Assembly (NCBI GenBank): GCA_964016885.1
Contig: OZ024742.1
Coordinates: 176,018,001-176,082,000 of the forward strand
Length of the DNA stretch: 64,000 bases
DNA from: Eledone cirrhosa
Taxonomy: Eukaryota
Direction: 5' to 3'
Part shown: piece after piece, positions 15,189-63,602 of the stretch
How the letters are laid out: every line of letters begins with the position of its first letter
Position numbering within the stretch: position 1 is the first letter of the stretch
The notes under the pieces: model-generated
What the model saw: only the letters and a program-made list of their open reading frames with translations
The model's database searches: none
What the model was told of the DNA's origin: nothing
Program-made: the position numbers and the translations under genes

Positions 15189-15263
15189 TATTTATTTCAT
15201 TATATATATTTCAGGGATATCATATTAACAATATGTTATGCCTTCTTCAGACAAAATACAATA
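15189..15263 (-). ncRNA. Minimal type-I hammerhead ribozyme (3' pLTR copy)
   Basis: Minus strand: TATTGTATTTTGT-CTGAAGA-stem II(AGG..CATATT/AATATG..CCT)-GAAA-T-ATAT-ATA-ATGAAATAAATA; stem I pairs; palindromic loop III. Confidence 0.85.
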
Positions 15264-16654
15264 TAGACAGTTTTATAGATAAATAGATTTGACATACCGT
15301 TCAACATCGACTTGTATTTGAAAAAGTTGATTTGGCAGTGAAAAATTGTAAACAGAAAGAAAGAAAGAAAGAAAGAAGGAAAGAAAGAAAGAAAGAAAGA
15401 AGGAAAACGAAGAAAAAGAAGAAAAAGAAGAAATGCATGCAACAAAATAGAGAGATGGAAAGATAGATGAAGAGAAGAACTTCATGTAAAGAAACAGAGA
15501 GAGATATAGAGAGAGAGGAAATAGATAGAGATAGATATATATAGAGAAAAGTAGGTAGTTGGACGACGTATCAATGATACCTTTATTTATTTATTTATTT
15601 ATTTATTTATTTATTTATTTATTTAGCTCTAGTAATAATGTAAGGGAGATATATGTCGTTAGGAAAGAAACCAGCCGTTATATAGAGAGAAAAATGAAAA
15701 GTAACCAGACATAGGCGAGGCAGAATTCAAAAACCCTATGTTTTAATGTAGAAGTATTAGTTCGTATAAAAACCAGGCACTATAATGTAAATATCAGTAT
15801 TCCTGAATGAGACACGTATCTATAATGTGTGAAAAGTAATGATCTTATGTCTAGTTTTAAAAATTCATATGTTTATATGATAACTACAAACATCGATGTG
15901 AATTTACGTGATCAACTCTGCAAACCCCTATTTCACACGGAGAACATTCTCATTGTGCTATAAAAATTTAAGTATACATATATGTGTATATATACACACA
16001 TATATATAGAGTCTATATTAATTTTAACAATACTATTCTTGTCTTTACTCTACATGATTATCTATCAAGCAGAAATAGAGAACAGATTTCAATATATTAA
16101 TAAAAATATCAGAAACAAAAACAAAAAATACAAAAAATAATAATAATAATAATAATAAAAATAAACAAATAAATAAAATAGAAAACTAAAAAATATTATA
16201 TATTAAAAATGAAAATATTAAAAATATTAAAAAATATTATTAAAAAATATTAAAATAATAAAAATAAAAATAAAAACATAATATGCCACGCAAATCGACC
16301 ACAAAGATCAACCCTTCAAAATTAATTGACAATATATTGCCAAGTTCATTATAAGCATCAGAGTCGAAAACAGATAAAGCTAAAAATTATTTACCAAATT
16401 GCGTCTAGCAGAAATCATTTCAAAAGTTTAGGATGCCCAATTTGGTCTACATATGTTCTTATATTTAATATAGAAGTTTATCTAGTGTAACGTTTATTCG
16501 ATATATTTGGAGCATCAACTTTTAGAGTAGTTTAATTTTTCATGAAGAATGTTTAAAATAAAAATAAAAATTAAAATAAAAAGAAGAATAAAAAGAAGAA
16601 ATCGAAAGATTTATCGGCTAGTTTCCCAAATAATTACAAATCAAACTAAATATA

Positions 16655-18345
16655 CTACATTTTAAATTTAAATTTATATTTAAAAGTTGAGTTCAATCTA
16701 TGTTTGCAGCAACTGAATAAATTTGTCCGTAGAATAAGGGAATTTTTAGATTTTAGTATAAAGAATATCTCCTCCGCGCAGAGGTCACATGTCTCAGAGG
16801 ATGAATTAAAAGGAATCCCTCTTGAGGCTATATTCCAAGCCGTCGAATATCTAACGTTATCTTGCCTAAGTTGCCAGAGTACGCCTGATAGTGCTGTTGA
16901 AGATTTTTTGCGTGGATCTGTGAAAGAATTCTTGTGGTTATTATAGCGAAGTTTAAATTCCGTCGATGTGGAACCGACGTAGTTAAAAGAATTAGAGTCC
17001 GTTTTAACATTACAGTTGTATATTATATTTTTAACTAAGCAGTTGTTATTTAACGGACATTTAGATCTATCTCTACAGTTACATTTGTTAACTTGTATAT
17101 TATTTATGCTATTATCGCTAGGTTTTAAGTTCCTATTATTTATTCTATTAATATTTTGTGCTAAATTTTTGGTGGATGAGTAGGTTAATTTTATAGTATG
17201 TCTATTGAAAATTGAGTGATACCTATGTGTTCTAGGGAAGCGATTATCAAGAGCTTTAAAAAATAGTTTAGCGATGTGGGTTTTAATGTTTAGTGAGAAA
17301 GGGGGGGGCAAACCATATTATGTTCCTAGTTCTATTTCTTTTTTGGCTTTTGGAATTATTGTAATGCTTTCTATTATAGTTGTTAAGATTGTGGCCGTAA
17401 TTAAAATAGTTGTTATTTTGTTTAGTTTGTCTATCATTATCTATGTACATAATCTTATCACTATATCCTGCTCTAGCTAACGCTTCATTGTAGTACTGGG
17501 CTTTTTCGTCGAAAATCTTTCTATTAGACGAGATTCTAGAGATACGTTTTTGAACAGAGTTTACTATAGTGTTTTTGACAGATCTGAGGTGGTTAGAGTT
17601 AAAGCTGAGATAGTTTAAGTTTTCATTCAACTTGTGAAATGGATAGTGAAGACATGTGTTGAGATTTAATGTTATATCTAGGAAATTGACTATTCTATGG
17701 TTGTTCTCAATTTCTATTTTTAGATTAAAGTAATTAAAAAATTGTGTAATTTGTTTTCTTTTTCTATTTAGTTCAGAGTTATTATTATCAATAAGTAAAA
17801 TTGATCTTCGGTTTCCTGGGCACGAAAGGTTGTGTTCTGTTCTCAATTTCCAACTCGTGCATTATACAAGATGCTTCAACATTCATTTTCTCAAGCTCGG
17901 CCTTATCTGCTACCTTGTACTTTTTCCTCAGTTCCTTCAGTATGAGGCCATTATACATGTCTTTCTGCACTCCATAGAGGTTGTTGGTCTTGTCAGATTT
18001 CACCAAGATCTTCTCAGTTTTCTCTAAGCTCTCAATATTATCCTTAATGCCTTTCAGATATTCCTGGCCTTTGAAGTTTCTCTTGAATTTGACCCCTTGT
18101 ATGATAGAAATTATATCGTTTTCAAAGTCAGATAAAAGTTTGTTAGGGGGTGGATTTCTTTTAGATTTGAAAACTTTGTTTAAGTCCGAGACATTTTCAT
18201 TTATATTAGATTTATCGAAGTGGAATGCTCGCCACCTGATTCTCCTTATAAAAGAGTCAGATTTATCTATTAATTGTTTTATAAAGTCTTTGTTTCTAGG
18301 TAGAGGTATGTCTTTTAAAGAGGAAGTAATCTTAAAGAATTCCAT
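16655..18345 (-). pseudogene. PLE polyprotein in three frames: N-terminus, RT thumb, Cys-rich linker and GIY-YIG endonuclease; RT palm deleted
   Basis: SLKDIP...FIRRIRWRAF; VNFLDITLNL...YLSFNSNH; IIWFAPPF; CNCRDRSKCPLNNNCL; NIIY...YVGSTSTEFKLRYNNH; CDLCAEE; no (Y/F)xDD motif. Confidence 0.9.
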
Positions 18346-18519
18346 TTTTTCAGTTATAATATAAAGCGCTCAACAGTATTGGAGCAAGATACATGGAAAG
18401 TTATATTTAAATTGTTGGGTTACAACTAGTAAATATTTATAACTGATATAAAAGCACTCAACAAATATTTGGAGTATATTTACGATATTAAATAAATGGA
18501 AACTATATTTATAAAACAA

Positions 18520-61783: not shown

Positions 61784-62210
61784 AGGTCACCAGTTGGTGC
61801 TACTGGTAACATGTATTCGAGTACAACCTGTCCCATGGTCGGGTCGTTGGCGATTAAACTGTCAACCCCACCAATGTTTCTTGGTTAGTAGGGCGACTTT
61901 GGACATCCTGCAGGACTAAAAACAAAACCTGTCAAAGGGCAAAGGAGCTCTTAAGAGTCAATGGCCATCCAAAATCACCGGGAGAGATGACCCCTTAGCC
62001 TTTGTTAAGGCAGAATTCTAGTAGAAGGAAAACTCTGATATAACACCTGCAACCCTGATGGTATCCAATGATGTTGACTTGTTCTTCTTTTTGGTAAATA
62101 CCATCTAGGTTAACAGAGTGGGACTGGCTTTGTGCAGTGCCTTTGCTCACTATAAAAGCTTCACGGCACAGGCATTACTTTATATCTGGAGATCTCTCTG
62201 CACTTGTCGT
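61784..62210 (+). mobile_element. Dispersed repeat resembling an RTE 5' UTR (related ~19320-19560, ~29740-29960, ~63820-64000)
   Basis: Shared GGGTCGTTGGCGATTAAAC..CAACCCC and GAAGGAAAACTCTGAT...ATGATGTTGAC motifs among copies. Confidence 0.5.
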
Positions 62211-63180
62211 CACATGGTACCATGGGCCCAGCACTATGTGTCAATAATTGTCACAGGTGTAATGTTTGTCCCAGAGTTTTCAAGTCGCTGGCTGGACTAA
62301 AAAGTCACACTCGTTCAGCGCATCCGTGGGGGTTCTCCAACATGGATATAAAGTAGTAGCGTACTAGAAAACGAGTTGGCAGCCACCATGTATGTATGTA
62401 TCTAGTTCATTTGTATGTATCTAGTTCATTTGACAAATGAACTACTGAACATCTCAATGCGTCCGCCACCACTATAACGTCTACACTCACTCCCCACCAT
62501 CACATTTACATTTACACATGTCATTACCCTATCTAGACAAAAGTCACCGACCTGTTGTCAAACTCTCTACTCTGTGTTTAATGTGTGTGTGTATATATAT
62601 ATGTATGTATATGTGTGTATATACATCACTCAGTCAAACGACCAGATTTGAACCCCAATATCTACAACAACAACACCGGCACAAATGTTTACAGCAACAA
62701 CAGCTTCAGAATGAATTGAAATGAACATTTACAACAACAACAACAGCAGCAGCATCAAACGATAAAACAAAAACAAAAATCAAACAACAAACAAACAAAA
62801 AAACTAAAAATAACAAAACACACACACGCACACAACGCAACAACAACAACAACAACAACTGCCACCACCACCGCCGCCATCACTGGGCCTTAAGGAAACA
62901 ACAACTTTAATAATACTTTTTCTGCTTGTCTCAGCACATTACTGGTACTCTCTTTTGTTGACTCCGTGGGGATGAAAGGCAAGGTTGACCTCGGCAGATT
63001 TGAGCTCAGAGCGTGGAGAGCGATAGCTCTATGCTGTAAATACTGAACTGTAACACGAACGGCTTCATCTATGCGAACTCTTGAAAGTCAACAGTTGACA
63101 TAATCTTGTAATCTTGTATCAGTAATGACGGTAATATATATATATATATATATATATATATATATATATATATATATATA

Positions 63181-63602
63181 TTAGAAAGTGAGGTTTTTTT
63201 TACAAAATGAAAAGTAACCGAGGTGTCCTACACGAGTAAAAGTATAAAGAAAAAGAGATGAAATCGAAAATGCAACTGAAGTCTTATTTTAAAAAAAAAT
63301 ATATATATTTATTTGGTTCCTTTACCGGTTTCGCAGTTCTTCTGCTTTTCAAAAGGTGAGTTGAGATGGAGGGTCTGTGGTTTTTCTCACATGGGCATAG
63401 TTCTTGAAGATAAGCAGATCAAAATGTGTTGATATAGCAAGAGTGCTTAGTTTATCCATGATGGAGGCAAATGGTAGCATCTCAACTCACCTTTTGAAAA
63501 GCAGAAGAACTGCGAAACCGGTAAAGGAACCAAATAAATATATATTTTTTTTTAAAAATAAGACTTCAGTTGCATTTTCGATTTCATCTCTTTTTCTTTA
63601 TA
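63181..63602. mobile_element. Miniature inverted PLE-type insertion in (TA)n
   Basis: 63244-63368 is a near-perfect reverse complement of 63478-63602; ~110-nt spacer; ~60-nt unpaired tail on the left; each arm carries a hammerhead-like motif. Confidence 0.75.
63490..63527 (+). ncRNA. Variant minimal hammerhead with UUGAAAA core (mirror copy 63319-63356 on -)
   Basis: CCTT-TTGAAAA-GCAG-AAGAA-CTGC-GAAA-CCG-GTA-AAGG: stems I and II pair, palindromic ACCGGT stem III, GUA triplet. Confidence 0.7.

What the first reader, a model, noticed from the sequence alone, without database searches (positions are those of the whole stretch)
15189..63527. Nine hammerhead motifs in five PLE-type insertions, all next to (TA)n
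Seen: HHR cores at 15189, 18520, 19141, 36845, 40147, 54064, 58502, 63319 and 63490. Stem II sequences differ between families yet all fold, and G-U pairs in stem I of the 19141 copy are A-U pairs in the 40147 copy. Each host element ends at TA-rich microsatellite. Established: PLE pLTRs carry minimal HHRs and some PLE clades prefer microsatellites. Inference: a dense, microsatellite-targeted ribozyme-retroelement system that may be poorly described in this lineage. The CxCx5CP linker suggests the Hydra-type PLE group (recollection, needs a tree).
Basis: partly seen in the sequence, partly recalled or inferred. Interest (0 to 1): 0.75.

Follow-up and report, generated by a model that had tools for sequence, protein, structure and literature searches.

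The report
Hammerhead ribozymes in TA-targeted Penelope retroelements
This stretch of an animal genome holds ten hammerhead-ribozyme motifs in the end regions of Penelope-like retrotransposons lodged in TA microsatellites, a combination already published for the 'Hydra' group of these elements, so it is a clean and very abundant but ordinary example.

Summary
The observation mostly holds. All nine listed sites carry hammerhead-like motifs, and I found a tenth (61224-61282, minus strand).

- **Motif state:** Five are complete and canonical, against 0.14 expected from shuffles. One (36851) has only the core and stem II. Two have a substituted core base (40151, 58507). Two carry the U3-A8 core variant already published for Penelope-like elements (PLEs).
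- **Evidence they are real:** Stems covary across unrelated families (0 of 20,000 permutations). In family A the ten fixed core bases are about 12 times less variable than other positions, while free position N7 takes all four bases.
- **Hosts:** There are six PLE insertion clusters, not five. All eleven outer boundaries meet TA-rich repeats. Genome-wide, 27/29, 16/21 and 5/6 terminal ends abut (TA)n, against a 3.5% background.
- **Clade:** Families A and C match the published Hydra clade (CxCX5C linker; in A also DKT and no CCHH). Family B is a different clade (Cx4CxxC plus CCHH).
- **Abundance:** 5,803 exact ribozyme 30-mers genome-wide, and intact 737-aa frames.

Craig et al. 2021 and Cervera & de la Peña 2014 already describe all of this. 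Earlier notes of this scan report the same on other pieces of this genome. Verdict: new members of a known kind.

The parts
15064..18616 (-). Family A (Hydra-type PLE) copy. Upstream pseudo-LTR at 18389-18616. Broken ORF at 18369-16655, in three frames, lacking 523 bp (about 174 aa of RT core) at 17800. About 1.4-kb 3' UTR. Downstream pseudo-LTR at 15064-15285, which includes an 86-nt 'tail' at 15064-15149.
   Evidence: Direct repeat 15058-15285 / 18389-18616, 99% identical. Translations. Alignment to the intact 3,806-bp unit. Boundaries.
15194..15257 (-). Hammerhead, family A. Complete, with core CUGAAGA...GAAA.
   Evidence: Descriptor. Model R1: 69.7 bits, E 2.4e-17.
18525..18588 (-). Hammerhead, family A. 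Complete.
18620..19254 (+). Inverted 5'-truncated family A copy, head-to-head with the minus-strand copy. It ends ...AATATCGTA with no tail.
   Evidence: Inverted repeats I5, I7, I9 and I24. Boundary.
19147..19210 (+). Hammerhead, family A. Complete. Predicted cleavage between 19203 and 19204.
15036..15063 (.). TA repeat abutting the tail end of the family A composite.
19257..19296 (.). (TA)n abutting the other end of the family A composite.
35862..37104 (+). Family B copy. 5'-truncated and 99.4-99.5% identical to a 4.12-kb unit with an intact 1210-aa ORF elsewhere. Carries a Cx4CxxC linker and GIY-YIG with two internal cysteines.
36851..36878 (+). Family B hammerhead core (CUGACGA), one unpaired U, a 6-bp stem II and GAAA. 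Stems I and III are not defined.
   Evidence: The core and stem II block is kept in relatives about 80% identical (L005, L051, L112). The following TATATATATA is internal, identical in all copies.
37101..37147 (.). (AT)n at the true 3' end of the family B copy.
40085..40255 (+). Family A2: a 171-nt 5'-truncated tail of an older relative of family A, followed by (TA)n at 40257-40345.
40151..40213 (+). Hammerhead, family A2. Core position 12 is U (UAAA). Stem I has A-U where family A has G-U.
   Evidence: R1: 51.0 bits. Copies of the same family with an intact core exist in the genome (L034, L037).
53923..56263 (-). Family C (Hydra-type linker KCNCRNRIDC) 5'-truncated copy. It has a tail of about 100 nt at 53923-54019. 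EN-coding frame at 56263-55736.
54069..54121 (-). Hammerhead, family C. Complete. Stem I has G-C where most family copies have U-A.
56499..58607 (+). Inverted family C copy, head-to-head with the other and without a tail. A SINE-like repeat (56307-56514) lies between the two.
   Evidence: Inverted repeats I1-I4, I8, I15 and I23. Boundary.
58507..58559 (+). Hammerhead, family C. Core position 13 is U (GUAA), and stem II has a mismatch.
61164..61426 (-). Family F: a 263-nt 5'-truncated tail with TA arrays on both sides (61427-61535 and 60953-61167).
61224..61282 (-).
   Evidence: R1: 64.1 bits.
63180..63390 (-). Family E copy with a tail of about 60 nt (63180-63242). It abuts (AT)n at 63134-63181. 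The hammerhead variant is at 63319-63352.
63478..63602 (+). Family E copy, inverted partner without a tail. It abuts (TA)n at 63599-63641. The hammerhead variant is at 63494-63527 (UUGAAAA, helix III ACCGGU).

Best explanation
The window holds six clusters of Penelope-like retrotransposon (PLE) copies whose outer ends all meet TA-rich repeats and whose 3' UTR / pseudo-LTR regions carry ten hammerhead-type motifs; the ribozymes likely cut read-through transcripts as dimers, and the elements likely insert by their GIY-YIG endonuclease nicking (TA)n followed by target-primed reverse transcription.

Shown here:
- The motifs are real, constrained RNA structures.
- They belong to PLEs with tandem pseudo-LTRs, head-to-head inverted truncated partners, and an extra 'tail' at one end only.
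- Families A and C carry the Hydra-clade protein signature. Family B carries a Neptune/Nematis-type signature.
- The families are abundant, and families A and B include copies with intact open frames.

Inferred from published work on other PLEs, not tested here:
- Self-cleavage.
- The dimer mode, which rests on helix III being an exact palindrome that cannot fold within one molecule.
- What cleavage is for.
- That the TA repeat is the target rather than a by-product.

Uncleaved RNA is probably the main template. 5,803 copies continue past the cleavage site, and only 19 end at it.
For: Structure and constraint:
- 5 complete motifs against 0.14 in shuffles.
- 13 families were picked on core plus palindrome only. 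Stem I pairs 5/5 in 9 of them and at least 4/5 in 10. The mean is 4.23, against 2.17 slid and 2.60 +/- 0.30 permuted, and 0 of 20,000 permutations reach it.
- In a 9-sequence cross-family alignment, 91.2% of cells are paired against 69.6% shuffled (0/500) and 30-50% slid. 14 of 16 pairs change on both sides.
- In 63 BLAST-defined family A copies, the ten fixed core positions carry 0.20 minor alleles per position, against 2.36 elsewhere. N7 is G28/A20/T13/C2.
- The helix III stretches are exact palindromes (TATATA, CGCG, CTAG, GTAC, TGCGCA, TGATCA, CAATTG). Helix III is absent from the monomer MFE folds, while stems I and II are present for A, F and E.

Host elements:
- Repeat architecture and boundaries with one-sided tails.
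- An intact 737-aa family A ORF with RWR, DKT, YRDD, CNCRDRSKC, GIY-YIG with one internal Cys, CDLC and CKH. These match the Hydra definition and the published alignment.
- Family B's 1210-aa ORF.
- The atlas's nearest clusters are about 690-730 aa and commonest in Cnidaria and Ctenophora. This is a lead only.

TA association:
- 27/29, 16/21 and 5/6 terminal ends, against 3.5% of window positions.
- TA-rich sequence on the 5' side as well for F and B in the window (imperfect for B) and for some E copies.

Abundance: 5,803 exact 30-mers. First-look candidates: 700, 2,040, 231, 14,579 and 59,654.
Against: - Rfam's hammerhead models do not match.
- Family A has A10.1-U11.1, and C and the window's F copy have G-U, where PLE hammerheads usually keep G10.1-C11.1.
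- The youngest family A subfamily has an uncompensated A.A mismatch in stem II, where older subfamilies have a perfect 10-bp stem.
- For family C the monomer MFE is a non-hammerhead fold.
- Stem II closing pairs are only modestly above shuffled (3.15 against 2.46 of 4).
- Some alignment rows were found with a descriptor that required pairing (F_win and C_win).
- Some loci overlap, so a few copies are counted twice.
- Published PLE mini-hammerheads cleave poorly in vitro. The one PLE tested biochemically did not need its ribozyme for insertion in vitro.
- The 5'-junction test for family A was inconclusive: only 2 of 12 'simple' 5' ends had a TA run, and several of the 12 are artefacts.
- No RNA reads could be laid.
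- No phylogeny was made.
- The family A unit is 3,806 bp, whereas Hydra elements are described as generally under 3 kb.
Confidence: 0.85

Rival explanations
1. The motifs are chance matches produced by AT-rich, repeat-rich DNA and are not ribozymes.
For: - The bare core pattern is at chance level: 3 found against 1.41 expected.
- Rfam finds nothing.
- The model R1 also gives weak hits in TA / inverted-repeat DNA at 25.2-25.5 kb that lack the core.
Against: - Descriptor count of 5 against 0.14.
- Cross-family covariation.
- Core positions conserved about 12-fold over other positions, with N7 free.
- A fixed place in the 3' UTR of PLEs.
Confidence: 0.02
2. The TA repeats are not the insertion target. 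They would be a 3' tail made by the element's reverse transcriptase, as some non-LTR elements make microsatellite tails, or they expand secondarily from the element's own TA-rich end.
For: - In head-to-head composites both outer ends are 3' ends, so TA at both ends does not discriminate.
- Family A's 5'-junction test found TA at only 2 of 12 simple 5' ends.
- The junction is always ...CGTA-TG-(TA)n, which suggests that a few bases are templated.
Against: - The window's family F tail has a (TA)n array directly at its 5' junction and a TA-rich array at its 3' end.
- Family B's 5' junction lies in an imperfect TA/CA repeat.
- Several 5'-truncated family E copies have TA upstream.
- An E-like tail is nested in the TA run of a family A copy (L137).
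- The published interpretation is targeting, and a PLE endonuclease nicks AT-rich DNA in vitro.
Confidence: 0.1
3. The hammerheads are passengers with no role in transposition, either fossils or 'parasites' of the PLE. Their conservation would only reflect the youth of the copies.
For: - Ribozyme-dead mutants of an Anolis PLE still insert in vitro, and no RNA ends were seen at its cleavage site.
- Naiad PLEs thrive without hammerheads.
- 5,803 copies continue past the cleavage site against 19 that end at it.
- Stem II decay in the youngest subfamily.
Against: - Within family A the fixed core bases are far less variable than neighbouring bases of the same age, while N7 takes all four bases across successful subfamilies.
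- Unrelated families keep the same architecture with different stems.
- The core plus stem II is the best-kept block in family B relatives about 80% identical.
Confidence: 0.25
4. The short families E and F (and perhaps A2) are not truncated autonomous PLEs. They would be non-coding, retrozyme-like elements mobilised in trans by PLE proteins.
For: - No coding sequence was seen in any E or F copy. The longest upstream extents are 466 nt and 372 nt.
- They occur as back-to-back pairs with one tailed end, like PLEs.
- A 2026 preprint argues that animal retrozymes derive from PLE pseudo-LTRs (abstract only).
- Earlier notes of this scan on this genome say the same, unchecked.
Against: - The copies are truncated at variable 5' points rather than having one fixed start.
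- They are not in tandem arrays in the window.
- Only 21 E-type and 14 F-type copies were examined, all with at most 1.5 kb of flank.
Confidence: 0.35

Closest known systems
Hydra clade of C-terminal EN+ Penelope-like elements (Craig et al. 2021, PMC8557442). Read: section 11 in full, other passages, and supplement sheets and alignment blocks.
   Same: For families A and C:
[quoted passage not shown]
- The CxCX5C linker.
- A hammerhead about 60-110 nt from the 3' end.
- U before GAAA, as in many listed Hydra ribozymes.
- Ends in (TA)n.
- Pseudo-LTRs and inverted truncated partners.

Seen in family A only (C's N-terminal part was not recovered): DKT in place of DKG, no pair of cysteines inside GIY-YIG, and CxxC/CxH near the C-terminus. 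A cephalopod family (Hydra-1_Obim) is listed in the supplement.
   Different: - The family A unit is 3,806 bp, with a 3' UTR of about 1.4 kb, against 'generally <3 kb'.
- It has RWR rather than RWK.
- Helix III is an 8-nt AU palindrome with no loop, where the listed Hydra ribozymes have a 3-4 bp helix with a 1-3 nt loop.
- Position 10.1-11.1 is A-U or G-U.
- Copy numbers are in the thousands, where the paper speaks of a small number of families and notes four copies for the cephalopod family.
- The family C copy has two cysteines between GIY and YIG, at a non-canonical spacing.
- No tree was made.
Minimal hammerheads of metazoan PLEs (Cervera & de la Peña 2014, PMC4209133; passages read).
   Same: - They lie in the pseudo-LTRs.
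- Helix III is very short and palindromic, implying dimers.
- Helix II is long.
- There is an unpaired base after A9 (family B).
- Families are heterogeneous and full of covariation.
- The U3-A8 core covariation (family E) was reported there for Cercyon elements.
   Different: - G10.1-C11.1, stressed there as highly conserved, is not kept in families A and C.
- Several families here share a C.C or C.U mismatch at the fourth stem II position. I did not see that mentioned in the passages read.
Neptune / Nematis clades of EN+ PLEs (as summarised in Craig et al. 2021; passages).
   Same: For family B:
- A CX2-5CxxC linker (CTNRKCIIC).
- Two cysteines between GIY and YIG.
- Tandem pseudo-LTRs 4.12 kb apart with an inverted truncated partner.
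- An end in a TA repeat.
   Different: - I could not tell which of the two clades it belongs to.
- It has a long, N-rich, low-complexity N-terminal region.
- Stems I and III of its hammerhead are not defined.
Metazoan non-LTR retrozymes (Cervera & de la Peña 2020, PMC7229834, search listing only; Li et al. 2026 preprint, abstract only).
   Same: Short non-coding repeats with type I hammerheads, proposed to derive from PLE pseudo-LTRs. This is possibly what families E and F are.
   Different: Retrozymes are described as tandem arrays giving circular RNAs. E and F here are single or back-to-back copies with variable 5' truncation.
Athena / Coprina telomere-attaching PLEs (as summarised in Craig et al. 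2021; passage).
   Same: A hammerhead lies next to a stretch complementary to the DNA end that the element attaches to. Here helix III itself has the sequence of the TA target.
   Different: - These elements have an endonuclease.
- Nearly all copies (5,803 against 19) include sequence beyond the cleavage site.

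Membership tests
Hammerhead ribozyme (type I, PLE class) | Conserved core CUGANGA ... GAAA. | tested here: met
   Met at 5 of the 9 listed sites and at the unlisted 61224-61282. Not met at 40151 (U12) or 58507 (U13). At 63319 and 63490 the core has U3/A8, a published covariation.
Hammerhead ribozyme (type I, PLE class) | Helices I and II flank the core and are supported by covariation. | tested here: met
   (0/20,000 and 0/500 controls). For family B, stem I is not defined.
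Hammerhead ribozyme (type I, PLE class) | A short palindromic helix III followed by a U-H cleavage site. | tested here: met
   Exact palindromes in families A, F and E and in seven further families. Family C has UAUGUA, which is imperfect.
Hammerhead ribozyme (type I, PLE class) | The G10.1-C11.1 pair. | tested here: not met
   A-U in family A. G-U in C and in the window's F copy. Present in B, E and one F subfamily.
Hammerhead ribozyme (type I, PLE class) | A match to the curated Rfam hammerhead models. | tested here: not met
   This is expected for a helix III of this kind, but it is still a miss.
Hammerhead ribozyme (type I, PLE class) | Self-cleavage at the predicted site. | not testable with these tools
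   No raw RNA reads were available.
Penelope-like elements, EN+ | A single ORF with RT followed by a C-terminal GIY-YIG endonuclease. | tested here: met
   Intact frames of 737 aa (A) and 1210 aa (B), with YRDD/YVDD and GIY-YIG motifs read by eye. Pfam gives no hit on the intact proteins. On window fragments it gives only a weak GIY-YIG hit (E 0.0043, below the cut-off).
Penelope-like elements, EN+ | Pseudo-LTRs from partial tandems, an inverted 5'-truncated partner, and a tail at one end only. | tested here: met
   compared with the figure 2 legend of Craig et al..
Hydra clade | A CxCX5C linker before GIY-YIG. | tested here: met
   CNCRDRSKC in family A and CNCRNRIDC in family C.
Hydra clade | DKG changed to DKT, and an RWK motif. 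| tested here: inconclusive
   DKT is present in family A. The other motif reads RWR, not RWK. The N-terminal part of family C was not recovered.
Hydra clade | No CCHH, that is, no two cysteines between GIY and YIG. | tested here: met
   Family A has one cysteine there (definition). The family C copy has two, at a spacing unlike family B's, so C is inconclusive.
Hydra clade | Insertion into (TA)n. | tested here: met
Hydra clade | Short elements (<3 kb). | tested here: not met
   The family A unit is 3,806 bp. The paper says 'generally', so this is a soft feature.
Hydra clade | Placement within the clade in an RT (and EN) phylogeny. | not tested
   Reference sequences exist only in the paper's supplement and were not entered into any tool.
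Neptune/Nematis clades (family B) | A CX2-5CxxC linker plus CCHH in the endonuclease. | tested here: met
   CTNRKCIIC, with the cysteines in ...SIRCTEGTC... lying between VVY and YIG. The histidines were not assigned, and no tree was made.
Metazoan non-LTR retrozymes (families E, F) | Short non-coding units in tandem arrays. | tested here: not met
   In the window and in the fetched loci they are single or back-to-back copies with variable 5' ends. Circular RNA is not testable here.

The most novel reading that the evidence does not exclude
In these TA-targeting families the ribozyme's helix III has become the target microsatellite's own sequence. Self-cleavage would therefore leave an RNA ending in ...GAAA(UA)4 that can anneal to a nicked (TA)n and prime reverse transcription. 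That would be a chromosome-internal counterpart of the telomere-repeat-plus-hammerhead device of Athena elements. The 19 family A copies that end exactly at the cleavage-site region and merge into (TA)n would be its footprints; all 10 of the 10 inspected end this way.
Probability: 0.07. Interest if true: 0.6.

Novelty: new member of a known kind. Interest (0 to 1): 0.3.

Why it matters
The element type, its ribozyme, its target and even the odd U3-A8 core are all published, so the finding itself is not new.

Its use is practical. This genome carries thousands of near-identical Hydra-type copies with intact frames. Within them the ribozyme core is visibly under constraint while free position N7 drifts. 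That is population-scale evidence bearing on an open question: whether PLE hammerheads matter for the element in vivo, given that they were dispensable in vitro. It also makes this genome a good place to test ribozyme function and (TA)n targeting experimentally.

Tried and rejected
- **Rfam:** neither the gathering nor the permissive scan gave a hammerhead.
- **Bare core pattern:** at chance level.
- **First covariation script:** it used the shortest palindrome register and gave meaningless stem I counts. It was redone with an a-priori longest-palindrome rule.
- **Mixed alignment:** MAFFT put the 4-nt and 6-nt helix III classes out of register, so that alignment was discarded.
- **Linker regex upstream of each ribozyme family:** the 1.3-kb span was shorter than the 3' UTRs of families A and C, so it was uninformative for them.
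- **5'-junction test for family A:** inconclusive.
- **RNA evidence:** The look-up of sequencing runs offered only assembled contigs and small shares, with no raw RNA reads. Nothing was laid, so expression and in-vivo cleavage remain untested.
- **Pfam:** no family on the intact A and B proteins.
- **Idea that cleaved RNA is the usual template:** rejected, 19 copies against 5,803.
- **Idea that the U3/A8 core of family E is new:** rejected, since it is in Cervera & de la Peña 2014.
- **Full-length copies of E and F:** not found in the fetched loci.
- **RT/EN tree against named clades:** not attempted, because the reference sequences are not session sequences.

Full report
**Observation**

Rfam finds no hammerhead in the window. 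At gathering score there are 2 matches, both U6. At E<=10, none of the 150 listed rows is a hammerhead; 5 lower-scoring rows were not shown. The bare pattern CTGATGA N4-30 GAAA is at chance level, with 3 found against 1.41 expected.

Reading the nine coordinates nevertheless shows hammerhead-like motifs at each. Helix III is only a short palindrome, which explains the Rfam miss.

I wrote a descriptor that asks for the core, a stem II of at least 3 pairs, A15.1...U16.1-H, and a stem I of at least 4 pairs. It finds 5 complete motifs, against a mean of 0.14 (largest 3) in 100 block-wise dinucleotide shuffles. They are:
- 15250->15193 (minus strand)
- 18581->18524 (minus strand)
- 19154-19211 (plus strand)
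- 54114->54069 (minus strand)

The remaining listed sites are as follows:
- 36851-36878 has the core, one unpaired U and a perfect 6-bp stem II, but I could not define stems I and III.
- 40151-40213 has U at core position 12.
- 58507-58559 has U at core position 13 and a stem II mismatch.
- 63319 and 63490 read UUGAAAA (U3/A8) with helix III ACCGGU.

A covariance model built from nine cross-family ribozymes was run over the window without filters. It gives seven hits at E<=2.4e-10, namely the A, A2, C and F sites. The next hits, from E 7.6e-05 at 25.2-25.5 kb, lack the core.

**Are they real ribozyme motifs?**

I fetched genome copies of each family from the window's own 3.0-Gb genome.

Family A shows the expected constraint. 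In 63 BLAST-defined copies, not chosen on their core, the ten fixed core positions carry 2 minor alleles in all, or 0.20 per position. The other 64 positions carry 2.36 per position. N7, the one free core position, is the most variable column, with G28, A20, T13 and C2. A few loci overlap, so some copies count twice.

Across families I selected candidates only by core, GAAA, the longest exact palindrome and U-H, with no demand on the stems. This gave 103 sites in 13 families, two of which are subfamilies of A. The results were:
- Stem I pairs 5/5 in 9 families and at least 4/5 in 10.
- The mean is 4.23, against 2.17 for slid partners and 2.60 +/- 0.30 when 3' strands are permuted among families.
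- 0 of 20,000 permutations reach the observed value.
- Stem II closing pairs are only modestly above shuffled (3.15 against 2.46 of 4).

On the nine-sequence alignment:
- 91.2% of cells pair, against 69.6% in shuffles (0/500) and 30-50% when slid.
- 14 of 16 pairs change on both sides.
- Two of the nine rows (F_win, C_win) had been found with the pairing descriptor, which favours the result.

The helix III stretches are exact palindromes: TATATA, CGCG, CTAG, GTAC, TGCGCA, TGATCA and CAATTG. In the MFE folds of A, F and E, stems I and II form but helix III does not. This fits the dimer model that Cervera & de la Peña 2014 proposed for PLE ribozymes (passages). For family C the MFE is a different fold.

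The U3-A8 core of family E is present in all 21 copies fetched. The same paper already reports it for Cercyon PLEs.

**The hosts**

There are six clusters.

1. **Family A, 15064-19254.**
   - The minus-strand copy has two pseudo-LTRs (99% identical) and a frame broken into three pieces.
   - It lacks 523 bp, about 174 aa of RT core, relative to an intact 3,806-bp unit.
   - Head-to-head with it lies an inverted 5'-truncated copy at 18620-19254.
2. **Family B, 35862-37104.** It is 5'-truncated.
3. **Family A2, 40085-40255.** A 171-nt tail.
4. **Family C, 53923-58607.** Two head-to-head truncated copies with a SINE-like repeat between them.
5. **Family F, 61164-61426.**
6. **Family E, 63180-63602.** Two inverted copies.

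Each composite carries an extra tail of about 60-100 nt at one end only. This is the PLE signature described in the figure 2 legend of Craig et al. 2021, and it is explained biochemically by two reverse-transcription start sites.

**Clade**

Craig et al. define the Hydra clade by these features (section 11 read whole; CCHH definition):
- a CxCX5C linker
- DKT in place of DKG
- an RWK motif
- no CCHH, that is, no two cysteines between GIY and YIG
- possible CxxC and CxH motifs near the C-terminus
- canonical hammerheads
- short length
- (TA)n insertion

An intact family A frame of 737 aa shows CNCRDRSKC, DKT, RWR, one cysteine between IIY and YVG, CDLC and CKH. By eye it is collinear with the published Hydra alignment. 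The window's family C fragment has CNCRNRIDC.

Family B's intact 1210-aa frame has CTNRKCIIC and two cysteines inside GIY-YIG, which is the Neptune/Nematis configuration.

Pfam finds nothing on either intact protein. The atlas's nearest clusters for family A are proteins of about 690-730 aa, commonest in Cnidaria and Ctenophora, which I treat as a lead only.

I made no tree, because the reference sequences are only in the paper's supplement.

**TA microsatellites**

In the window all eleven outer boundaries meet TA-rich repeats. Ten have (TA)>=4 within 40 nt. Family B's 5' junction lies in an imperfect TA/CA repeat.

For family B the TATATATATA beside the motif is internal, since it is identical and followed by the same sequence in all copies. 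The true end is about 250 nt further on, at the (AT)n of 37101-37147.

Genome-wide I applied one criterion, (TA)>=4 starting within 12 nt. Terminal ends meet it as follows:
- Family A: 27 of 29
- Family C: 16 of 21
- Family E: 5 of 6
- Background: 3.5% of window positions, and 15.6% within the element-rich loci

Most exceptions are short TA runs or misclassified body continuations.

Whether TA is the target or a by-product:
- The window's family F tail has TA arrays on both sides.
- Family B's 5' junction is in a TA/CA repeat.
- Some truncated E copies have TA upstream.
- The systematic 5'-junction test for family A was inconclusive. Of 29 terminal copies, 14 have inverted partners and 3 run off the locus. 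Of the 12 'simple' ends only 2 have a TA run, and several of the 12 are artefacts.

**Abundance and age**

| Measure | Result |
|---|---|
| Exact 30-mer of the family A ribozyme (reversed control 0) | 5,803 |
| First-look candidates, family A tail | 700 |
| First-look candidates, family C tail | 2,040 |
| First-look candidates, family B tail (21 copies 100% identical) | 231 |
| First-look candidates, family A N-terminal protein (150 scored, all >=95% identical, many 745-aa open frames) | 14,579 |
| First-look candidates, family C endonuclease region (150 scored; apart from the window's own copy, 79-90% identical with mostly broken frames) | 59,654 |

First-look candidates are not copy numbers.

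**Mechanism**

The architecture, the constraint and the TA association are shown here. The following rest on published PLE work:
- Transcription runs through tandem units.
- The ribozymes act as dimers.
- The endonuclease nicks AT-rich DNA.
- Reverse transcription starts internally.

I tested one idea directly. Cleavage would leave ...GAAA(UA)4, which is complementary to the target. Copies in which the ribozyme runs straight into a TA array number 19, against 5,803 that continue past the site. All 10 fetched copies of that class truly end there. Cleaved RNA is therefore at most a rare template, and slippage deletion explains these copies equally well.

No raw RNA reads were available.

**Comparison and verdict**

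Everything essential is in print: Hydra-clade PLEs with hammerheads in (TA)n, including a cephalopod family, palindromic mini-hammerheads and the U3-A8 variant.

The differences are of degree:
- a longer unit
- an AU-only, loop-less helix III
- non-G-C pairs at position 10.1-11.1
- a recurrent C.C or C.U mismatch at the fourth stem II pair
- very high copy number

Earlier notes of this scan describe the same system on other pieces of this genome, and Hydra-type elements in other genomes. I used them only as leads. These are new members of a known kind.

Noticed in passing
window 46246-46352 (-) and 46334-46440 (+): Two full-length U6 snRNA matches (94.9 and 78.8 bits) lie head-to-head and overlap by 19 bases. 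Both end in TTTT.
   Followed up: no
L135-L144 (own genome): A rare class of family A copies (19 exact matches against 5,803 normal) ends at the ribozyme's helix III / cleavage site and merges into (TA)n. In 10 of the 10 fetched, the element does not resume. The cause is either templating by cleaved RNA or slippage deletion.
   Followed up: partly
alignment A2, column 18 with column 47 (families A, C, F, K, H): The fourth position of stem II is a C.C or C.U mismatch in several otherwise unrelated ribozyme families, and the 5' C is nearly invariant. It may be a tertiary-contact site.
   Followed up: no
L137, about 1500-1700: An E-like PLE tail is inserted in the TA run that ends a family A copy. 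This nesting would explain why these elements cluster.
   Followed up: no
window 24730, 27765, 28202, 28603, 46675, 46803, 56307, 62932: Eight copies of a repeat of about 200 nt, SINE-like (...GGCACAAGGCC...GATGAAAGGCAAAG...GGATTTGAACTCAGA...). One sits between the two family C arms.
   Followed up: no
window 59385-60269 (-) and 38477-39427 (+): Fragments of other retroelements. One frame has RVT_1 (E 6.2e-09) plus a weak PHD-like match. Another has a weak zf-RVT match. Neither belongs to the PLEs.
   Followed up: no
window 25160-25550: A TA-rich array of inverted units of about 49-55 nt (...TTTCTGTGTGT(AT)nACACACAGAAA...). It produces many sub-threshold microRNA-model hits and the only false positives of the hammerhead model.
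   Followed up: no
L133:2374-4587 (-) and L134:4734-8366 (+): Pfam-A gives no family at E<=0.01 for two intact PLE proteins of 737 and 1210 aa. Automated annotation would probably leave these abundant genes unnamed.
   Followed up: partly
L001-L030 (family A subfamilies): Older subfamilies have a perfect 10-bp distal stem II. The youngest and most abundant subfamily has an uncompensated A.A mismatch there.
   Followed up: partly
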